Of a stretch of DNA of 64,000 nt, positions 23,165 through 30,647 are shown in pieces (the stretch's first letter is position 1; each line of letters starts with the position of its first letter). Made by a program: the position numbers and the translations under genes. A model generated the notes under the pieces. It searched no databases, had not been told where the DNA came from, and was given only the letters and a program-made list of their open reading frames with translations. Source of the DNA: a virus (taxonomy: Duplodnaviria > Caudoviricetes); the IMG/VR virus record IMGVR_UViG_3300029798_000001. The stretch is one strand, 5' to 3'.

Positions 23165-23416
23165 ATGACAACACAAACCGCGTTTGAACATATTGTAGCT
23201 TTTGCTGATCGTAATGATCAACCTCGTGAACTTGTAACTCAAGAAGATTTTGATCTATGGCAAAAAGATTATACCTGGGATGCCTTGTATGGTATTAGAT
23301 ACGGGCAAAGTTTTTGTAATAGGTTCAATATATCTAATAACTTATTATACTATTCTACCTGGCCTCCGGAACAAATGGATCATTACATAAAGAAACACTA
23401 CATTGAAAGATCCTGA
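23165..23416 (+). CDS. Hypothetical protein
   Basis: After early promoter; RYGQSFCN. Confidence 0.6.
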   Translation: MTTQTAFEHIVAFADRNDQPRELVTQEDFDLWQKDYTWDALYGIRYGQSFCNRFNISNNLLYYSTWPPEQMDHYIKKHYIERS

Positions 23417-23624
23417 ATTTAACTATCCTGTGACAGTCAATTGGGGCCGTGGTACAGATACCATGGAATACTGGGATCGGTTATGTATTGCTAGTATTGA
23501 AATGGTTGGATGTCCTGGTGATCGCTTTATTACAGACATCGGTGCAGATCAGATGATCTGGGCATTCCGCGACCCTAGAGATGCATTTATTTTTAAATTA
23601 AAGTTCAGTGAGGTAACATGTTAA
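23403..23624 (+). CDS. Paralog-family small protein
   Basis: WAFRDPRDAFIFKLKF. Confidence 0.6.
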   Translation: MKDPEFNYPVTVNWGRGTDTMEYWDRLCIASIEMVGCPGDRFITDIGADQMIWAFRDPRDAFIFKLKFSEVTC

Positions 23625-24022
23625 CGAATTTATATTTTGCGTATGGGGCAAATATGCACCCCGGACAAATGGAGTGGCGTTGTCCCAAAGCCCTAGCAAG
23701 CCAAACATTTATTCTGCGTGACTGGGAATTAAAATTTTATAGCCATGCTACCATTGAGCCTAAGCGAGGCACCCAGGTCGCAGGAGTGCTGTGGGAGATT
23801 ACCGAAGATTGCGAACTTAGGTTAGACGCATTTGAAGGTTATCCAAGTTATTATACTAAACAGACTTGGATACAAGACGATACTCAGTTTTTCTTTTACG
23901 AAATGACAACTCCTAAAAGCGGAAAACCGAGCGAGGGGTATGTGTTAGACATCGAAGAAAGTTATACATTCTGGCAACTTCCTAAAGATTTATTAACCCA
24001 ATCATTAAATGACCCTGCATAG
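23618..24022 (+). CDS. Gamma-glutamylcyclotransferase (AIG2-like)
   Basis: YFAYGANM, GVLWEI, LDAFEGYP. Confidence 0.85.
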   Translation: MLTNLYFAYGANMHPGQMEWRCPKALASQTFILRDWELKFYSHATIEPKRGTQVAGVLWEITEDCELRLDAFEGYPSYYTKQTWIQDDTQFFFYEMTTPKSGKPSEGYVLDIEESYTFWQLPKDLLTQSLNDPA

Positions 24023-24272
24023 AGTAAAACACGAACCGTTATTAAAGAGTCCCATGGATTATATGCGGAACAAGGATAGTTTTAGTTACGCCCAAGAGAT
24101 CTCAAAAGAGTTTGGTATACTTGAGCATGTATTAGACTGGTGTAAAGAAGAATTGTCAGCAGAATGGCGGTGGCAATTATCAGAATTGAGCAGTGATCAC
24201 AAGCCCGGTCGCTATATCTTTTATTTTGATTCAGAACGAGATTGCCTAGCATTTATAATGAAATGGCGTTAA
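24009..24272 (+). CDS. Paralog-family small protein
   Basis: LDWC...YIFYFDSERDCLAFIMKW. Confidence 0.6.
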   Translation: MTLHRVKHEPLLKSPMDYMRNKDSFSYAQEISKEFGILEHVLDWCKEELSAEWRWQLSELSSDHKPGRYIFYFDSERDCLAFIMKWR

Positions 24273-25022: not shown

Positions 25023-25082
25023 GTTGACTGGAAATTACCGATTTGTTATAATAGTAGTATAGTAATTAATTATGAGGGTTTA

Positions 25083-25433: not shown

Positions 25434-25624
25434 TGACTGATGAACGTCTCATGGTATGTGAAGCGGTGTTCAATGATCAAATTGGACCCGAACATTTAAC
25501 TCAAGCAGAGATTGACGAGTTTATGGAACTAGTGCTAGATGCAAGTACAGACAAGTTAATGGCTGAAGCTGAACTTCGAGGGTGCAGTGTGTTCGATGGC
25601 ATAGAAGGGAACACAGTTCAATGA
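25433..25624 (+). CDS. Small acidic protein
   Basis: TAATG-coupled. Confidence 0.55.
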   Translation: MTDERLMVCEAVFNDQIGPEHLTQAEIDEFMELVLDASTDKLMAEAELRGCSVFDGIEGNTVQ

Positions 25625-25947
25625 ATCATCAGTTCGTAGTCATGTGGTGTAATGAAGGATTGGAATATGTGGGCGATGTTACTGCGGAACAGGGTAAAAA
25701 AGCCTGGGCCGCACTTAAAGGTGAAGAACATCGTGGCATGCCAAATCTTCTGCACATGCGACTACGAGCACAGTTTAACAAGGATCGGCACTATGAAATA
25801 TATTTTGTAGACGCAGTAGATGGAATTACCGAAGATGATATCCGCGAAATGTTCCGTGCAAGTCCGCAGACAGCCGCAGATACCATTAGAGAATTAGGAC
25901 AAGTTTTTTATAGTGACCGAGTAGAAGAACGCCCGGTCATAGTATAG
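25621..25947 (+). CDS. Hypothetical protein
   Basis: Start reassigned to MNHQF (ATGA overlap). Confidence 0.65.
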   Translation: MNHQFVVMWCNEGLEYVGDVTAEQGKKAWAALKGEEHRGMPNLLHMRLRAQFNKDRHYEIYFVDAVDGITEDDIREMFRASPQTAADTIRELGQVFYSDRVEERPVIV

Positions 25948-25950
25948 TTT

Positions 25951-26177
25951 GTGTTCAGGTGACTCTGGGCTAGTGTGATCCACACGATAAGTGGTTTAGT
26001 CAACCACGGATGGTTCTGGTCTAACCTAACCGGCGCTGGCAATGCGTTAACGAGCCCTGTCGTGGAGCGGGTGAATGCTGACTTATTTCTCTGCTGAATC
26101 CGATGGGATAACCAGAGTCGACACCATTGGGGTGTTGAAAAGTTTAGACTATAACTGACCGCCGGGGGCTGAAGAGC
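25951..26177 (+). ncRNA. Candidate ~225-nt structured non-coding RNA
   Basis: No ORF; GACTCTGG 25961-68 / CCAGAGTC 26112-19 encloses several hairpins; strand assumed from context. Confidence 0.55.
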
Positions 26178-26186
26178 ATTTATATT

Positions 26187-26465
26187 ATGAAAAATTATAA
26201 AGTCAAACGATTAACTCGACAGTACAACGGACATACTCGTTTTAAGTATGTTGTCCAACCTGCGACCTTTGATCTACTCACAACAAGACAGCAACTTGTT
26301 GAATGGCGTGAATGGTGTTGGACAACCTGGGGACCCAGCCGTGAGTTATTATGGTCCATCGCAGGCACTCCTGATGCTGTTTGGTCGTGGGATACCGAAC
26401 ACAATAACCGGCGCATATATCTAAAGACCGATGCTGAATTGGTCTTGTTTGAGCTGAAATTTTAG
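26187..26465 (+). CDS. Paralog-family small protein
   Basis: WREWC...RIYLKTDAELVLFELKF. Confidence 0.6.
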   Translation: MKNYKVKRLTRQYNGHTRFKYVVQPATFDLLTTRQQLVEWREWCWTTWGPSRELLWSIAGTPDAVWSWDTEHNNRRIYLKTDAELVLFELKF

Positions 26466-26557
26466 GTTAGTACGCACTAACATACAGTTCACCATTCGGT
26501 TGACAAAAAATGCCCGATTTGCTATAATAGTAGCATAGTAAAAATTAAGGGCTATCA

Positions 26558-26791
26558 ATGTATCGAAACATTATCACAGAATCGTTTATTGCAGGCAACG
26601 CAGAGCTGTACCAAACCGTAAAAGAATACCCAACACTCCGTATGGTCCCAATCGACCGTGTGGATACTGTTCGATATGGCCTTCGTCAATTGGGCTATAA
26701 TGCTCGCATCCGCTATCGTGGCCCTCATCAGCAGACTCGCGATACACTTAAACAAAATGCTCATGCCTTTACAGTGTACATCCAGGAATGA
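26558..26791 (+). CDS. Hypothetical early protein
   Basis: After early promoter; RIRYRGP. Confidence 0.65.
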   Translation: MYRNIITESFIAGNAELYQTVKEYPTLRMVPIDRVDTVRYGLRQLGYNARIRYRGPHQQTRDTLKQNAHAFTVYIQE

Positions 26792-27633
26792 TTAATTTAT
26801 ATTGCTATTCATACCCGGGTGCAATGAAAAAGTTTGCAGACCAGGGTTACATGTTAGTTAAGATTGGGGATAGCCACAGAGAAGCCGATGTGCGTATCAA
26901 GGAACAGGGCGGCGCTGCCGAATACGAAGCTAAAATTAAAATTAGCGAATGGAACAATTTAACAAAAATTGATCGTGACTATCGTATTCATGAAGTATTA
27001 ACCGAGCGTGGACTTTGGCATAGAGATGGCCAAGGCACAGAATGGTTTAAAATTCCAGCCACAAACGCCGCCGAAGTTCGAGATTATGTTGATCAGTTAA
27101 TTACATACCTTGAAGGTGAGCGTGTACGTCCTCCAGTTAAACTTCGCAGGATCCAGCAACATTCATTAGACCGTGCCATGGATATTATTGCAAACTGTGA
27201 TGATACCGCCAATATTATTGCCAACCTGTGCCCACGCTTTGGTAAAACAATCTGGGCCTTAATGCTGTTTAACCAGGTAACAGAAAAGTATGGTAACAAG
27301 GTAATGTTATTACCGGCATATTGGTTAAGCGTACACTCATCATTTATTGATGAGTTAGATGCATACAAAGACTTTGATGATATTAGATATGTCGACATTG
27401 ATGAACCCAAGGCATATAATTCTGCCCGGACGTATTTAAAAGAAGGTCAGCGCATTATTGTTCCTATCAGTTTACATGGTGATGTCGATGAATGGAAAGC
27501 CAAGCACCAATGGATTGCTAATATCCCCAACAACGAAATCTTTATGTTTGCAGACGAAGGCGATTTTGGTACTCATACTGAGAATCAAGTGGCTAAATTA
27601 CAATTTTTGTTTAATCAAGTAGAGGCAGAATAA
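26788..27633 (+). CDS. T5orf172/GIY-YIG nuclease fused to N-terminal half of SF2 helicase
   Basis: LYCY..VKIG..RI..EWF; Walker A CPRFGKT; motif II FADEGD close to C-terminus. Confidence 0.75.
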   Translation: MINLYCYSYPGAMKKFADQGYMLVKIGDSHREADVRIKEQGGAAEYEAKIKISEWNNLTKIDRDYRIHEVLTERGLWHRDGQGTEWFKIPATNAAEVRDYVDQLITYLEGERVRPPVKLRRIQQHSLDRAMDIIANCDDTANIIANLCPRFGKTIWALMLFNQVTEKYGNKVMLLPAYWLSVHSSFIDELDAYKDFDDIRYVDIDEPKAYNSARTYLKEGQRIIVPISLHGDVDEWKAKHQWIANIPNNEIFMFADEGDFGTHTENQVAKLQFLFNQVEAE

Positions 27634-28997
27634 TGTTTATATCTGTTTATGCCAGCGGCACTAATGTACAGCGCCTGGCCAAGTGTGCTAGAAAGATTGA
27701 TGGCGTGTTATATACCTCATACGCTCAACTTGAAAAAGAAGAGCCCAATATTATCCGTCGTAAATTTTACTGCACCGAGGTTGCTAGTTTAAAATCACAA
27801 GTCGACGCCCTTGATGAAACTGTGCAACCAAGTTGGACTAAGATTTGGGGTAAGCCACAAGGTAACCTGGCCTTTATTGGTCAGTTGTTTGAATCATTAA
27901 CAGGCAAAGATACTCTGCGTACAGAATTAAACTTGGCGGGGTTGGCAGAAGAGCCAGTTGATTGCTTTATGTTATTGGTAAGTGCTAACAAAAAAGAAAT
28001 GGGACAGATTTCTGAGATTGCCAAACGCCATATTCCAGATTGGCATATTAAAGTATTAAATGGCGACTTCACCACAAACAAAGATGCACAATCCGAAACT
28101 ACTCGCGAGCTTAACGAAGCTCGTATTGCCGGCAAAAAGGGTGCAATCGTTATAGCCAACCAAATGGGGTCACGCTCGTATAGTATTTCAGAAATTCAGG
28201 CAACTGTTATTGCCTTTGACCGTGGTAGTGTAGATGCTACCGCACAAAAGGTTAGCCGTTGTTTAACTCCAGGTGAGAAATACGATGGTACCAAAAAAGA
28301 ATTTGGTATAATTGTAGATTTAAGTTTTGATCCTAACCGTGCTGAGAACATTGAACGATTAATTCTCGAAGAAGCAATTCAGGTACAACGTGACGGTAGT
28401 AACGCAGATGATTTTGCTCAGGCGGTAAAGTATGTTTTATCCAGCATTAACTTGTTTAAGATGAAATACGGTACAGCAGTAGAAGTTACTGAAGAAGAAA
28501 TGTTTAAAGTATTCAGTGATAACGAAGCTATGTTGCGTGTAGCTGATGTTAGTGTTGACATCGCCGAAGCATTGGCATCTGGGGTGTTTGATATTCTAGC
28601 AAAGGTTAATGCTGATGGTAAGATAACCAAAGACAAAAAGGATGTACTTGCAGAGAATGTTAAGAACTCAATCCGAGAAGGTGGCGGCATTACAGACAAA
28701 ACAGCCAAGGCTTCTGACATTCGTGCCGCAGAAAAAATTATTAATGATGCAATTCGCGCATTAAACATGAGTGCAACTAGTGTGTATCATCTAGCTAATC
28801 TCGAAGGCGAAAGTTATAGAGATTGTTTGGAAATTATTACAGCAGAGCCATCATTAGATATTGAATTTGCTAGTTTATTTGGTATTACCGCAGGGCAAGT
28901 TATTGAATTACTTGATAATAATGTATTAAACGAAGCTATTCTAGATGTTATTGTACAAAACAGCAAGCCTAAAACGGTTGACCGTTTATTTGCTTAA
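27633..28997 (+). CDS. C-terminal half of SF2 (restriction-type) helicase
   Basis: Begins with motif III YASGT; MGSRSYS and QKVSRCLTP resemble motifs V/VI. Confidence 0.7.
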   Translation: MFISVYASGTNVQRLAKCARKIDGVLYTSYAQLEKEEPNIIRRKFYCTEVASLKSQVDALDETVQPSWTKIWGKPQGNLAFIGQLFESLTGKDTLRTELNLAGLAEEPVDCFMLLVSANKKEMGQISEIAKRHIPDWHIKVLNGDFTTNKDAQSETTRELNEARIAGKKGAIVIANQMGSRSYSISEIQATVIAFDRGSVDATAQKVSRCLTPGEKYDGTKKEFGIIVDLSFDPNRAENIERLILEEAIQVQRDGSNADDFAQAVKYVLSSINLFKMKYGTAVEVTEEEMFKVFSDNEAMLRVADVSVDIAEALASGVFDILAKVNADGKITKDKKDVLAENVKNSIREGGGITDKTAKASDIRAAEKIINDAIRALNMSATSVYHLANLEGESYRDCLEIITAEPSLDIEFASLFGITAGQVIELLDNNVLNEAILDVIVQNSKPKTVDRLFA

Positions 28998-29035
28998 TGT
29001 TATAATCGTAGTATAATAATACCTTAGGTAGAGCT

Positions 29036-30208
29036 ATGAAATTTGCAACAGATTTAAGTAAAGGTATTTTGGGTAGTGCAGATAGTGCAGAACTATGGAC
29101 CTCTAGTATCGCACAGATTCCTGACGATGTACTTACAAAACCTAAGGTTCGTATTTTGGTTTTGGCATGTGGACACGGAACCGAAGCAGTAATTATTGCC
29201 CAGAGGATGTTAGCCCTTGGCGTTAGTAAAGTACAGGTTAACCAAGCAATTTGGTTAATCGATAAGTATCGTGTATTTACAAACCACGCTAAATTAGTGT
29301 ACGGGTTTAAGAATGTAATCACCGAAGATTATTTGAATTGGAAATCGAATATGAAATTTAATGTTATTGTGGGTAACCCACCGTTTCAAGATAGTGACAG
29401 CGGCAACGAAAAGTCGAATCTCTATGTAGAATTTGCTAGAAAATCCATAGAGCAACATCTTGCTGATGATGGGCATATTATTTTTTTAACTCCGAAGACA
29501 ATGTTAAGAAAGACCAAACGATATTTTTCGTTAGTAGGGCAACCGGGTTTAAAATCCGTAGACTTTACTGCTAATGAATATTTTAATGTTGGTGTTGACA
29601 TTGTAGCATGGCATTTGCAAAAAGATAAGAATTTTAGTCAGGTAACAGTTACTAATAAAGATAGAACTGTTACCACAATTCCGGCCGGCGAGGAAATTGC
29701 TGATGCAGAAGAATTGTGGTTATACCGTTTAGTTGAGAATATGAAAAATACTCCTGACAAAGCATTTAGCTACAACAATATTGGCCCTCAGCGATCTACT
29801 ACTAAAACTAAAGAGTATTGTTATAAGTTAAAGCAAAATCTTGCCAAAAAGTCTGTAGTGTATTCTAAACGCGAGCCATACTTTTATGGTAAAAAGAAAC
29901 TATTAGTATCAATCTCTTTAGGGTATAATCAAGATAATATTGTTGTAGATACCTCAGATTATGCAGAAGCGTATGTATGTATGGATTTGACTGGAGCAAC
30001 ACCAGCACAGTATGATAACATAATGAGTTTTTTGTTTAATGAGTTATTTGTTGCATTAGTGGCAAAATATAGACTTATTTACAAAACTGGTTTTGCTAAT
30101 ATTTTAGTTTATCTACCTAAGTTTGATATTAATAAGTCATATTCTACTAAAGACATCAAGAAGTTTTTTAAGTTAACCAATGCTGAGGTGAAAAAGCTAT
30201 ATGCTTAG
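29036..30208 (+). CDS. Eco57I-like amino-methyltransferase (gamma class)
   Basis: VIVGNPPF, LYVEF, FLTP; motif I degenerate (ILVLACGHG); own promoter at 28978. Confidence 0.8.
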   Translation: MKFATDLSKGILGSADSAELWTSSIAQIPDDVLTKPKVRILVLACGHGTEAVIIAQRMLALGVSKVQVNQAIWLIDKYRVFTNHAKLVYGFKNVITEDYLNWKSNMKFNVIVGNPPFQDSDSGNEKSNLYVEFARKSIEQHLADDGHIIFLTPKTMLRKTKRYFSLVGQPGLKSVDFTANEYFNVGVDIVAWHLQKDKNFSQVTVTNKDRTVTTIPAGEEIADAEELWLYRLVENMKNTPDKAFSYNNIGPQRSTTKTKEYCYKLKQNLAKKSVVYSKREPYFYGKKKLLVSISLGYNQDNIVVDTSDYAEAYVCMDLTGATPAQYDNIMSFLFNELFVALVAKYRLIYKTGFANILVYLPKFDINKSYSTKDIKKFFKLTNAEVKKLYA

Positions 30209-30647
30209 ACAGTATGTTAAACATCTCCGCGATCGCGAATACATGTCCGGAGTGGAGCGTGATCAACTACGAATAAAAGCTACAGGCGAGGTGTTTACAC
30301 CTACTCCACTTGTACAAGAAATATTAGATCAACTGAGTTGTGCTGAATTTCAAGACTCAACAAAAACATTTTTAGATCCTGCGTGTGGCGATGGTCAATT
30401 CCTTAGCGAAGTACTAATTCGTAAGTTAGAAAATGGTATAGATTTTGAAACTGCACTATCAACAATCTATGGCGTAGATCTTATGCCCGACAACGTTAAG
30501 TTATGCCAAGATCGTTTACTATGCGGACAAGAACACTTACGCCATATTGTAGAAAAGAACATAGTAGAAGCAGATGGATTAGAATACAAATATCTGTTCG
30601 GCGAACCCGAAACCTTTGGTCTTGGATTGTTTACCGTAATGGATTGA
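30201..30647 (+). CDS. Short N6-methyltransferase SAM-binding subunit lacking motif IV
   Basis: GEVFTP, FLDPACGDGQFL, IYGVDL, ADGL; ends before NPP(Y/F). Confidence 0.75.
   Translation: MLRQYVKHLRDREYMSGVERDQLRIKATGEVFTPTPLVQEILDQLSCAEFQDSTKTFLDPACGDGQFLSEVLIRKLENGIDFETALSTIYGVDLMPDNVKLCQDRLLCGQEHLRHIVEKNIVEADGLEYKYLFGEPETFGLGLFTVMD

What the first reader, a model, noticed from the sequence alone, without database searches (positions are those of the whole stretch)
25951..26177. Large orphan structured RNA in the early region
Seen: a ~230-nt gap with no ORF, visibly GC-richer than its flanks. An 8-bp helix GACTCTGG/CCAGAGTC closes a multibranch domain containing GTGTG-ATC-CACAC, GTGGTT-TAGTC-AACCAC, GGTT-N7-AACC, GGCGC-TGGCAAT-GCGTT and CCTG-N8-CGGG. 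A further hairpin CGACACC-ATTGG-GGTGTTG follows. No tRNA, tmRNA, RNase P or group I core could be recognised. Inference: a possibly new phage ncRNA or ribozyme class.
Basis: partly seen in the sequence, partly recalled or inferred. Interest (0 to 1): 0.65.

Follow-up and report, generated by a model that had tools for sequence, protein, structure and literature searches.

The report
Triple-knotted RNA of giant lake phages
The gap holds a real gene for a roughly 230-base, triply knotted non-coding RNA of an uncatalogued family that many uncultured giant freshwater phages carry among their tRNA genes; here it has left the tRNA cluster but kept its fold, and its job is still unproven.

Summary
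Window 25947-26178 (+) encodes a member of a structured RNA family: 145 distinct core sequences (about 62 at 90% identity), about 170-280 nt, from mostly aquatic virus and metagenome contigs; all five large carrier genomes tested are T4-like. Rfam gives no hit for any variant tested. Covariation supports hairpins P1-P5, a P1/P3 kissing loop, two stacked pseudoknots, a lone tertiary pair and a nested P6-P7 helix, followed by a near-invariant AGCA tail. 113 of 145 members lie within 700 nt of a same-strand tRNA, and 65 begin 5-8 nt after a tRNA's CCA. The window's lineage descends from such copies and now sits in an early operon; a complete relative keeps its tRNAs 100 kb away. That favours a stand-alone, trans-acting RNA over a cis-element or tRNA-releasing ribozyme. 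RNase P, group I/II, T-box, theta/HDV, SRP, tmRNA and GOLLD/ROOL tests failed. Expression and function are untested. This scan had noted the family before on other phage DNA.

The parts
25947..26178 (+). Predicted RNA gene (about 232 nt). Ends are inferred from homologues: the 6-nt leader usually starts at the first base after a tRNA's CCA, and the conserved tail marks the 3' end.
   Evidence: ends not shown experimentally
25947..25952 (+). 6-nt leader (family consensus RAACGU); may pair by 3 bp with J2/3 (tentative)
25953..25970 (+). P1 hairpin; loop bases 25960-25964 kiss the P3 loop
25973..25985 (+). P2 (25973-76 with 25982-85); loop 25978-25981 is the 5' strand of pseudoknot PK1
25991..26007 (+). 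P3 hairpin; loop bases 25998-26002 are the kissing partner of the P1 loop
26008..26014 (+). Junction strand read by two loops: 26008-11 pairs with the P2 loop (PK1), 26012-14 pairs with P4-loop bases 26024-26 (PK2)
26016..26033 (+). P4 (26016-20 with 26029-33); its loop forms PK2 (H-type pseudoknot)
26034..26046 (+). P5 with conserved 7-nt loop URGCARY (T-loop-like, inferred); U26043 pairs with A26050 (U-A in 134 rows, C-G in 9)
26051..26058 (+). P6 5' strand (C-G pair, bulged G26052, then 6 bp); pairs with 26165-26171
26067..26070 (+). P7 5' strand; pairs with 26159-26162 (C-G, U-A and A-U exchanges)
26078..26147 (+). Lineage-specific accessory domain: P8 (26078-84 with 26140-47), P9 (26089-93 with 26113-17) enclosing a CUGA/AAC internal loop and P10 (26098-26109), and P11 (26118-26138). 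Replaced by a kink-turn-type arm or a plain hairpin in other members.
26159..26171 (+). 3' strands of P7 and P6
26173..26178 (+). Unpaired, near-invariant 3' tail AGAGCA; may dock on the P5 loop (hypothesis)
25024..25052 (+). Sigma-70-type promoter match (11 of 12, extended -10) heading the early operon that contains the RNA; no + strand terminator-like site before the RNA
   Evidence: consensus match only
25621..25947 (+). Upstream 108-aa ORF of unknown function; not a fixed neighbour
26187..26465 (+). Downstream 92-aa ORF of unknown function; not a fixed neighbour (lost in L012; present without the RNA in L100-102, L016, L132-135)

Best explanation
A stand-alone phage non-coding RNA gene. 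SHOWN by comparison (about 0.95): it encodes a compact, multiply pseudoknotted RNA whose fold is under selection, and it moves as an independent unit among tRNA genes and early genes. INFERRED: it is transcribed early by host sigma-70 polymerase inside a polycistronic transcript and cut out by the host nucleases that punctuate tRNA arrays. Its docked ends would make it stable. It most likely acts in trans through its shape, as a ligand or decoy for a protein or complex of the host's translation or tRNA-handling system (for example a tRNA-cutting defence nuclease or a ribosome-associated factor). That is the same job description as the phage tRNA cassette it normally rides in. The partner is not identified. 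The confidence figure refers to this mechanism.
For: Seven helices on an independent MAFFT alignment: 99.2% of cells paired, 15 pairs with two-sided change, 0 of 500 shuffles reach this, and slid registers give 24-46%. Top mutual-information pairs are the proposed pairs. On a tree both partners change together, up to 29 times per pair. The kissing loop scores 8.9 against 7.0 +/- 0.2 in shuffles, 0 of 2000. 113 of 145 members lie within 700 nt of a tRNA; 121 loci have same-strand tRNAs and none has an opposite-strand one. Neighbours are 11 different upstream and 13 different downstream tRNA types. The CCA-to-P1 distance is 5-8 nt (mode 6), matching tRNA-to-tRNA spacers in the same arrays (mode 6). 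The window's lineage is nested among in-array copies, and its complete 344-kb relative keeps the RNA about 100 kb from its 29 tRNAs. No fixed downstream gene, and no unstructured variable guide segment was seen. Conserved unpaired residues cluster in the P5 loop, the junctions and the tail. Phage tRNAs are known to counter tRNA-targeting host defences (PMC10264068, PMC11555353; abstracts and titles only).
Against: No expression data were obtained here. No partner gene co-occurs among the few tested: no RNase P protein, Ro60/TROVE or CCA-adding enzyme in five carrier genomes. There is no tRNA-like T-loop, anticodon arm or CCA end, so it is not an obvious tRNA mimic. It was not found in a 70%-complete relative that holds a 30-tRNA array, so it is probably accessory. 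In the window there is no tRNA processing site to release it; release by cuts in the A/U-rich flanks is an assumption. The link to translation rests on genomic neighbourhood only.
Confidence: 0.4

Rival explanations
1. A ribozyme of a new class: it self-cleaves near its 5' end to free the upstream tRNA (as theta ribozymes do), or it processes tRNAs in trans.
For: 65 of 145 members start 5-8 nt after a CCA. It has stacked pseudoknots and conserved unpaired nucleotides, as small ribozymes do. There is a precedent in phage tRNA arrays (PMC10879173).
Against: The distance to the CCA varies by 3 nt. Every abutting tRNA here already encodes CCA, against 4.5% for theta-linked tRNAs. There is one copy per array of about 28 tRNAs. 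It is kept with compensatory changes in lineages with no adjacent tRNA. No hammerhead, group I, RNase P or HDV/theta core. The pair after the P6 bulge is G-C, G-U or A-U, unlike the fixed guanosine site of group I P7.
Confidence: 0.15
2. An RNA-only oligomer or scaffold, working like GOLLD/ROOL: the P1/P3 loops and pseudoknot strands pair between molecules.
For: Same genomic niche as GOLLD and ROOL, which form homo-oligomers through intermolecular contacts (PMC12286853). In some members the P1 and P3 loops carry the same quasi-palindromic sequence. Covariation cannot tell intramolecular from intermolecular pairs.
Against: It is far smaller than ROOL (659 nt) or GOLLD (many over 800 nt) and has no Rfam similarity to them. 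All contacts can be drawn within one molecule.
Confidence: 0.15
3. A ligand-binding or cis-regulatory leader (riboswitch-like, or a T-box derivative) controlling the downstream gene.
For: In the window the tail ends 8 nt before a start codon. A GGGUGGU run recalls the T-box sequence. Kissing loops, T-loop-like loops and kink-turns are riboswitch building blocks (own knowledge).
Against: The downstream neighbour is usually a tRNA, or a promoter or an unrelated ORF. The RNA survives loss of the downstream gene (L012). No member has the full T-box word. The run is paired inside the RNA and is rewritten with compensation in L417. No switchable terminator was found.
Confidence: 0.1
4. A nuclease road-block that stabilises adjacent tRNAs or mRNA segments in cis, or a stable decoy that ties up host exonucleases.
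For: The knotted 5' domain lies right at the predicted 5' end, and the tail may be docked.
Against: Position in the array and neighbours vary freely. The conserved loop and tail sequences look more like a binding surface than a mechanical block (inference).
Confidence: 0.1

Closest known systems
GOLLD and ROOL large ornate RNAs (Kretsch et al. 2025, PMC12286853)
   Same: Phage-encoded, often near tRNA islands, multiply pseudoknotted, function unknown.
   Different: Much shorter here (about 170-280 nt), no Rfam match even at E up to 10, and oligomer formation untested.
Phage T4 species 1 and 2 RNAs (rnaC 139 nt, rnaD 119 nt; NC_000866)
   Same: Small stable RNAs embedded in the tRNA cluster of a T4-type phage.
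   Different: The model built here finds nothing in T4. rnaC carries a tRNA-type T-arm, which this family lacks.
Theta ribozymes (HDV-like; PMC10879173)
   Same: Frequently located directly 3' of a phage tRNA; nested pseudoknots.
   Different: Theta ribozymes are minimal HDV folds in gut phages beside mostly CCA-less tRNAs. This RNA is much longer, has a different topology, follows CCA-encoding tRNAs and often has no adjacent tRNA.
T-box riboswitch antiterminator
   Same: A GGGUGGN-like run after a hairpin; kink-turn-type elements in some members.
   Different: The run is consumed by two internal pseudoknots and covaries with them. No Stem I or specifier, no terminator, no amino-acid gene downstream.
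Bacterial RNase P RNA, catalytic domain
   Same: Size range of minimal RNase P RNAs, association with tRNA genes, and a superficial word similarity in the window lineage's accessory domain.
   Different: No CR-I or CR-V motifs, no P4 pseudoknot with bulged U, no RF00010 match at E up to 1. The similar words lie in a part that most members lack.
Anonymous candidate structured RNAs of Fremin et al. 2023 (PMC10690425)
   Same: That screen mined the same IMG/VR intergenic space and could have captured all or part of this family.
   Different: The passages read do not describe it, and its supplement is not held, so overlap could not be tested.

Membership tests
Any Rfam 15 family | Covariance-model match at gathering score | tested here: not met
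   No hit in the window or over 18 homologous loci at E up to 10; only sub-threshold noise
GOLLD / ROOL | Length of roughly 600-800+ nt and family-specific core | tested here: not met
   Members are about 170-280 nt; no Rfam match
GOLLD / ROOL | Location in phage tRNA islands | tested here: met
   113 of 145 within 700 nt of a same-strand tRNA; the window copy itself is outside an array
GOLLD / ROOL | Protein-free homo-oligomer | not testable with these tools
   Needs biophysics or cryo-EM
RNase P RNA | CR-I and CR-V motifs forming P4 with a bulged U | tested here: not met
   0 of 145 with either motif; RF00010 finds nothing in five carrier genomes
Group I intron | P3-P7 pseudoknot with fixed G-C guanosine site; R and S elements; precise insertion site | tested here: not met
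   P6 is nested, not a pseudoknot; the pair after the bulge varies; 0 of 145 with R/S; empty loci differ by whole genes, not by a precise junction
Group II intron | Domain V hairpin with a fixed catalytic triad | tested here: not met
   1 of 145 matches the word, taken as chance; the third base of the AGC-like run exchanges C, U, A with its partner
Theta / HDV-like ribozyme | HDV nested double pseudoknot starting at the cleavage site | tested here: not met
   Covariation gives a different topology; no HDV-type Rfam hit over the RNA
Theta / HDV-like ribozyme | Self-cleavage | not testable with these tools
   Needs in vitro transcription
T-box riboswitch | Free UGGN bulge that pairs with tRNA NCCA, plus Stem I | tested here: not met
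   Run paired in PK1/PK2 and rewritten in L417; 0 of 145 with the full word
tmRNA / tRNA mimic | T-arm, acceptor stem with CCA, tag frame | tested here: not met
   ARAGORN negative; 0 of 145 with a T-loop word
SRP RNA | Helix-8 signature with GNRA loop | tested here: not met
   0 of 145
T4 rnaC / rnaD | Homology to the T4 RNAs | tested here: not met
   Model R1 has no match in T4

The most novel reading that the evidence does not exclude
The family is a new class of catalytic or ligand-binding RNA: a protein-independent ribozyme (or aptamer) whose active site is formed by the P5 loop, the bulged P6 end and the docked 3' tail on a triple-pseudoknot scaffold, used by giant phages to process or protect tRNAs in trans.
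Probability: 0.15. Interest if true: 0.9.

Novelty: new variant of a known kind. Interest (0 to 1): 0.6.

Why it matters
Compact natural RNAs with a kissing loop, two stacked pseudoknots and conserved unpaired cores have often turned out to be ribozymes or riboswitches (own knowledge). This family is abundant in large aquatic phages, has a minimal form of about 170 nt (L257, L112) that is easy to transcribe, probe and image, and comes with natural compensatory variants for every helix. It makes the long-open question of what the non-tRNA RNAs in phage tRNA arrays do directly testable. The window's lineage adds a natural experiment: the RNA was kept after leaving the array, which argues for a job in trans.

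Tried and rejected
(2) My own first guess, a long-range helix between the junction strand and the P7 3' strand: only 4% canonical at the variable positions; P7 explains the covariation. (3) P3 loop pairing with 26144-26150: lost in homologues. (5) Exact-hairpin search in viral contigs gave 7 chance hits. (6) BLAST of three variants against cultured phages found nothing meaningful. (7) The GTDB pattern scan gave 45 hits, none with the upstream junction motif, and model R1 matched none of 14 tested; the pattern fits only 29 of 145 members, so absence from bacteria is not proven. (8) No RNA holder was listed among sequencing runs, which is no evidence either way; the four runs laid were DNA contigs. 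(9) No RNase P protein, Ro60, CCA-adding enzyme or RNase P RNA in five carrier genomes. (10) Flanking proteins have no Pfam or PHROG family. (11) Literature searches found no description of the family. (12) The window has no whole genome on file, and a model search across a bacterial class was not run (error). R-scape was not available; I used pair counts, mutual information and tree parsimony instead.

Full report
OBSERVATION. The gap between a 108-aa ORF (ends 25947) and a 92-aa ORF (starts 26187) is real and unusually GC-rich: 0.52 against 0.405 for the window, in the top 0.1% of equal-sized windows. It lies in an operon behind a near-consensus sigma-70 promoter match at 25024-25052, with no + strand terminator-like site in between. 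Rfam and ARAGORN find nothing.

FINDING THE FAMILY. Contigs encoding relatives of the flanking proteins gave the first divergent copies (L015, L096, L097). Three DNA patterns from different parts of the RNA were then scanned. The P5 region gave 12 true hits of 24 in viral contigs and about 25 of 70 in metagenomes. A parser recovered 148 distinct full-length sequences and 145 distinct core rows, about 62 effective at 90% identity, about 170-280 nt long. Each pattern fixes some letters, so invariance was judged with members found by the other patterns; the 3' pattern exposed variants of both pseudoknots. Five large carrier records (175-525 kb) all encode a T4-type major capsid protein. Runs holding the window's DNA are freshwater metagenomes. 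No cultured phage matched.

STRUCTURE. On an independent MAFFT alignment of 30 members, P2, PK1, PK2, P4, P5, P6 and P7 are 99.2% paired, with 15 pairs changed on both sides. No shuffle reaches this and slid registers fall to 24-46%. In the 145-row alignment the top mutual-information pairs are the stems of P1-P7. A caveat: my parser located P1, P3 and P4 by complementarity, so their near-100% pairing is partly by construction. P3 and P4 are confirmed independently by RNAalifold and the MAFFT count. P1 rests on the parser plus its repeated joint changes on the tree (16-25 per pair tested).

TERTIARY CONTACTS. (a) The P1 and P3 loops are complementary across 64 distinct loop pairs: mean score 8.9 against 7.0 +/- 0.2 when partners are shuffled. 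(b) PK1 joins the P2 loop to the first four junction bases: C-G becomes U-A in the window's lineage and A-U becomes G-C in another. (c) PK2 joins the next three junction bases to the P4 loop. It is nearly invariant, so its support comes from a few U-A to U-G changes and one fully rewritten member, L417. (d) The last base of the P5 loop pairs with the base before P6 (U-A 134, C-G 9; 8 changes in each column, 9 for the pair). Two further contacts are tentative: leader with J2/3, and the GC of the tail with the GC of the P5 loop, for which only two one-sided variants speak (L442, L297). Two regions tolerate insertions: after the junction, and inside P7. The latter holds a kink-turn-type arm in 60 members, a CUGA/AAC-loop domain in 31 including the window, or other arms down to a simple hairpin (P8-P11 covary).

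CONTEXT. 113 of 145 members lie within 700 nt of a tRNA, always on the same strand. In 65 the first helix starts 5-8 nt (46 times exactly 6) after a CCA, behind 11 different tRNA types, and about 38 end 2-10 nt before the next tRNA. tRNA-to-tRNA spacers in the same arrays peak at 6 nt. The RNA is thus placed like one more tRNA of the array. On the core tree the window's lineage is nested among in-array copies (L173, L143, L117), and in/out status changes about nine times (midpoint-rooted FastTree on about 130 columns, indicative only, and loci are of limited length). A complete 344-kb relative has the RNA at 231 kb and its 29 tRNAs at 330-341 kb. Flanking genes come and go independently of the RNA.

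HOW IT MOST LIKELY WORKS. Shown: a selected, compact fold and gene-like mobility. Inferred: early transcription by host polymerase, release by host nucleases, stability from docked ends, and action in trans through a conserved surface on a protein or complex of the translation or tRNA system (0.4). Rivals are a new ribozyme (0.15), an RNA-only oligomer (0.15), a cis-acting or ligand-binding leader (0.1) and a nuclease block (0.1). Retention away from tRNAs and the lack of a fixed downstream gene weigh against the cis readings. Nothing here identifies a partner.

COMPARISON AND NOVELTY. It occupies the niche of GOLLD, ROOL and the T4 species 1 and 2 RNAs but is a member of none, and it fails the defining tests for RNase P, group I and II introns, theta/HDV, T-box, SRP and tmRNA. 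I found no paper describing it. It may hide among the anonymous candidates of Fremin et al. 2023, whose supplement is not held. Earlier notes of this scan record look-alikes in 19 genomes; they are unchecked AI notes and not independent support, and one note's claim of presence in lake RNA was not tested here. Verdict: a real, uncatalogued RNA family with a new fold, of a known broad kind (orphan structured RNAs of phage tRNA arrays). Interest 0.6.

Noticed in passing
L103:2333-2365 (also L104-L106): At the orthologous site only a short remnant is left: the RNA's 5' leader joined to its 3' end, forming a 7-bp hairpin. It looks like an internal deletion of the gene.
   Followed up: partly
L289:5858-5990 (-): Truncated member: the 5' knotted domain and P5 are intact, but P6-P7 is replaced by a short hairpin followed by a GCA-ending tail. 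Possibly a natural minimal core or a decayed copy.
   Followed up: partly
G030 (524 kb record), L436 and L445: Two different copies of the RNA in two separate tRNA arrays of one record; either a true duplication or a chimeric assembly.
   Followed up: no
window 25024-25052 and 26500-26528: Near-perfect and perfect sigma-70 promoter matches. Many other lake contigs match only these 30-50 nt, so the same promoter cassette is repeated across these phages.
   Followed up: no
window 26788-30647: Cassette behind the 26500 promoter: a T5orf172-domain protein, an unassigned 454-aa protein, a DNA methyltransferase (PHROG match) and a further methyltransferase-like ORF. Related loci carry ResIII or MTS-domain genes at the same place, suggesting a variable restriction-modification-like island.
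   Followed up: partly
window 23403-23624, 24009-24272, 26187-26465: Three small ORFs with similar Trp-rich cores and C-termini; probably paralogues of a large uncharacterised family (148 relatives in viral contigs; no Pfam family).
   Followed up: partly
L113, L115, L125, L144 flanks of the RNA: A conserved small hairpin about 10 nt upstream and a long A/U-closed hairpin directly downstream recur in this sub-lineage; possibly further RNA motifs.
   Followed up: no
L112:7366-7766, L128:10079-10491: Permuted (two-piece) tmRNA genes in the same arrays, with tags ending ANDEVFALAA and ANDEVYALAA, hinting at proteobacterial hosts (own knowledge).
   Followed up: no
3' flank of many members (L258, L262, L143) and spacers after tRNA-Glu and others: The same short A/T-rich element follows either this RNA's tail or a tRNA's CCA, and often opens a 100-500 nt non-tRNA spacer; possibly another array RNA or a processing signal.
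   Followed up: no
family alignment, last P3 base and the base before the P4-loop ACC (window 26007 and 26023): These two positions covary as C/A versus A/U (10 changes each on the tree), suggesting a further non-canonical tertiary contact.
   Followed up: partly
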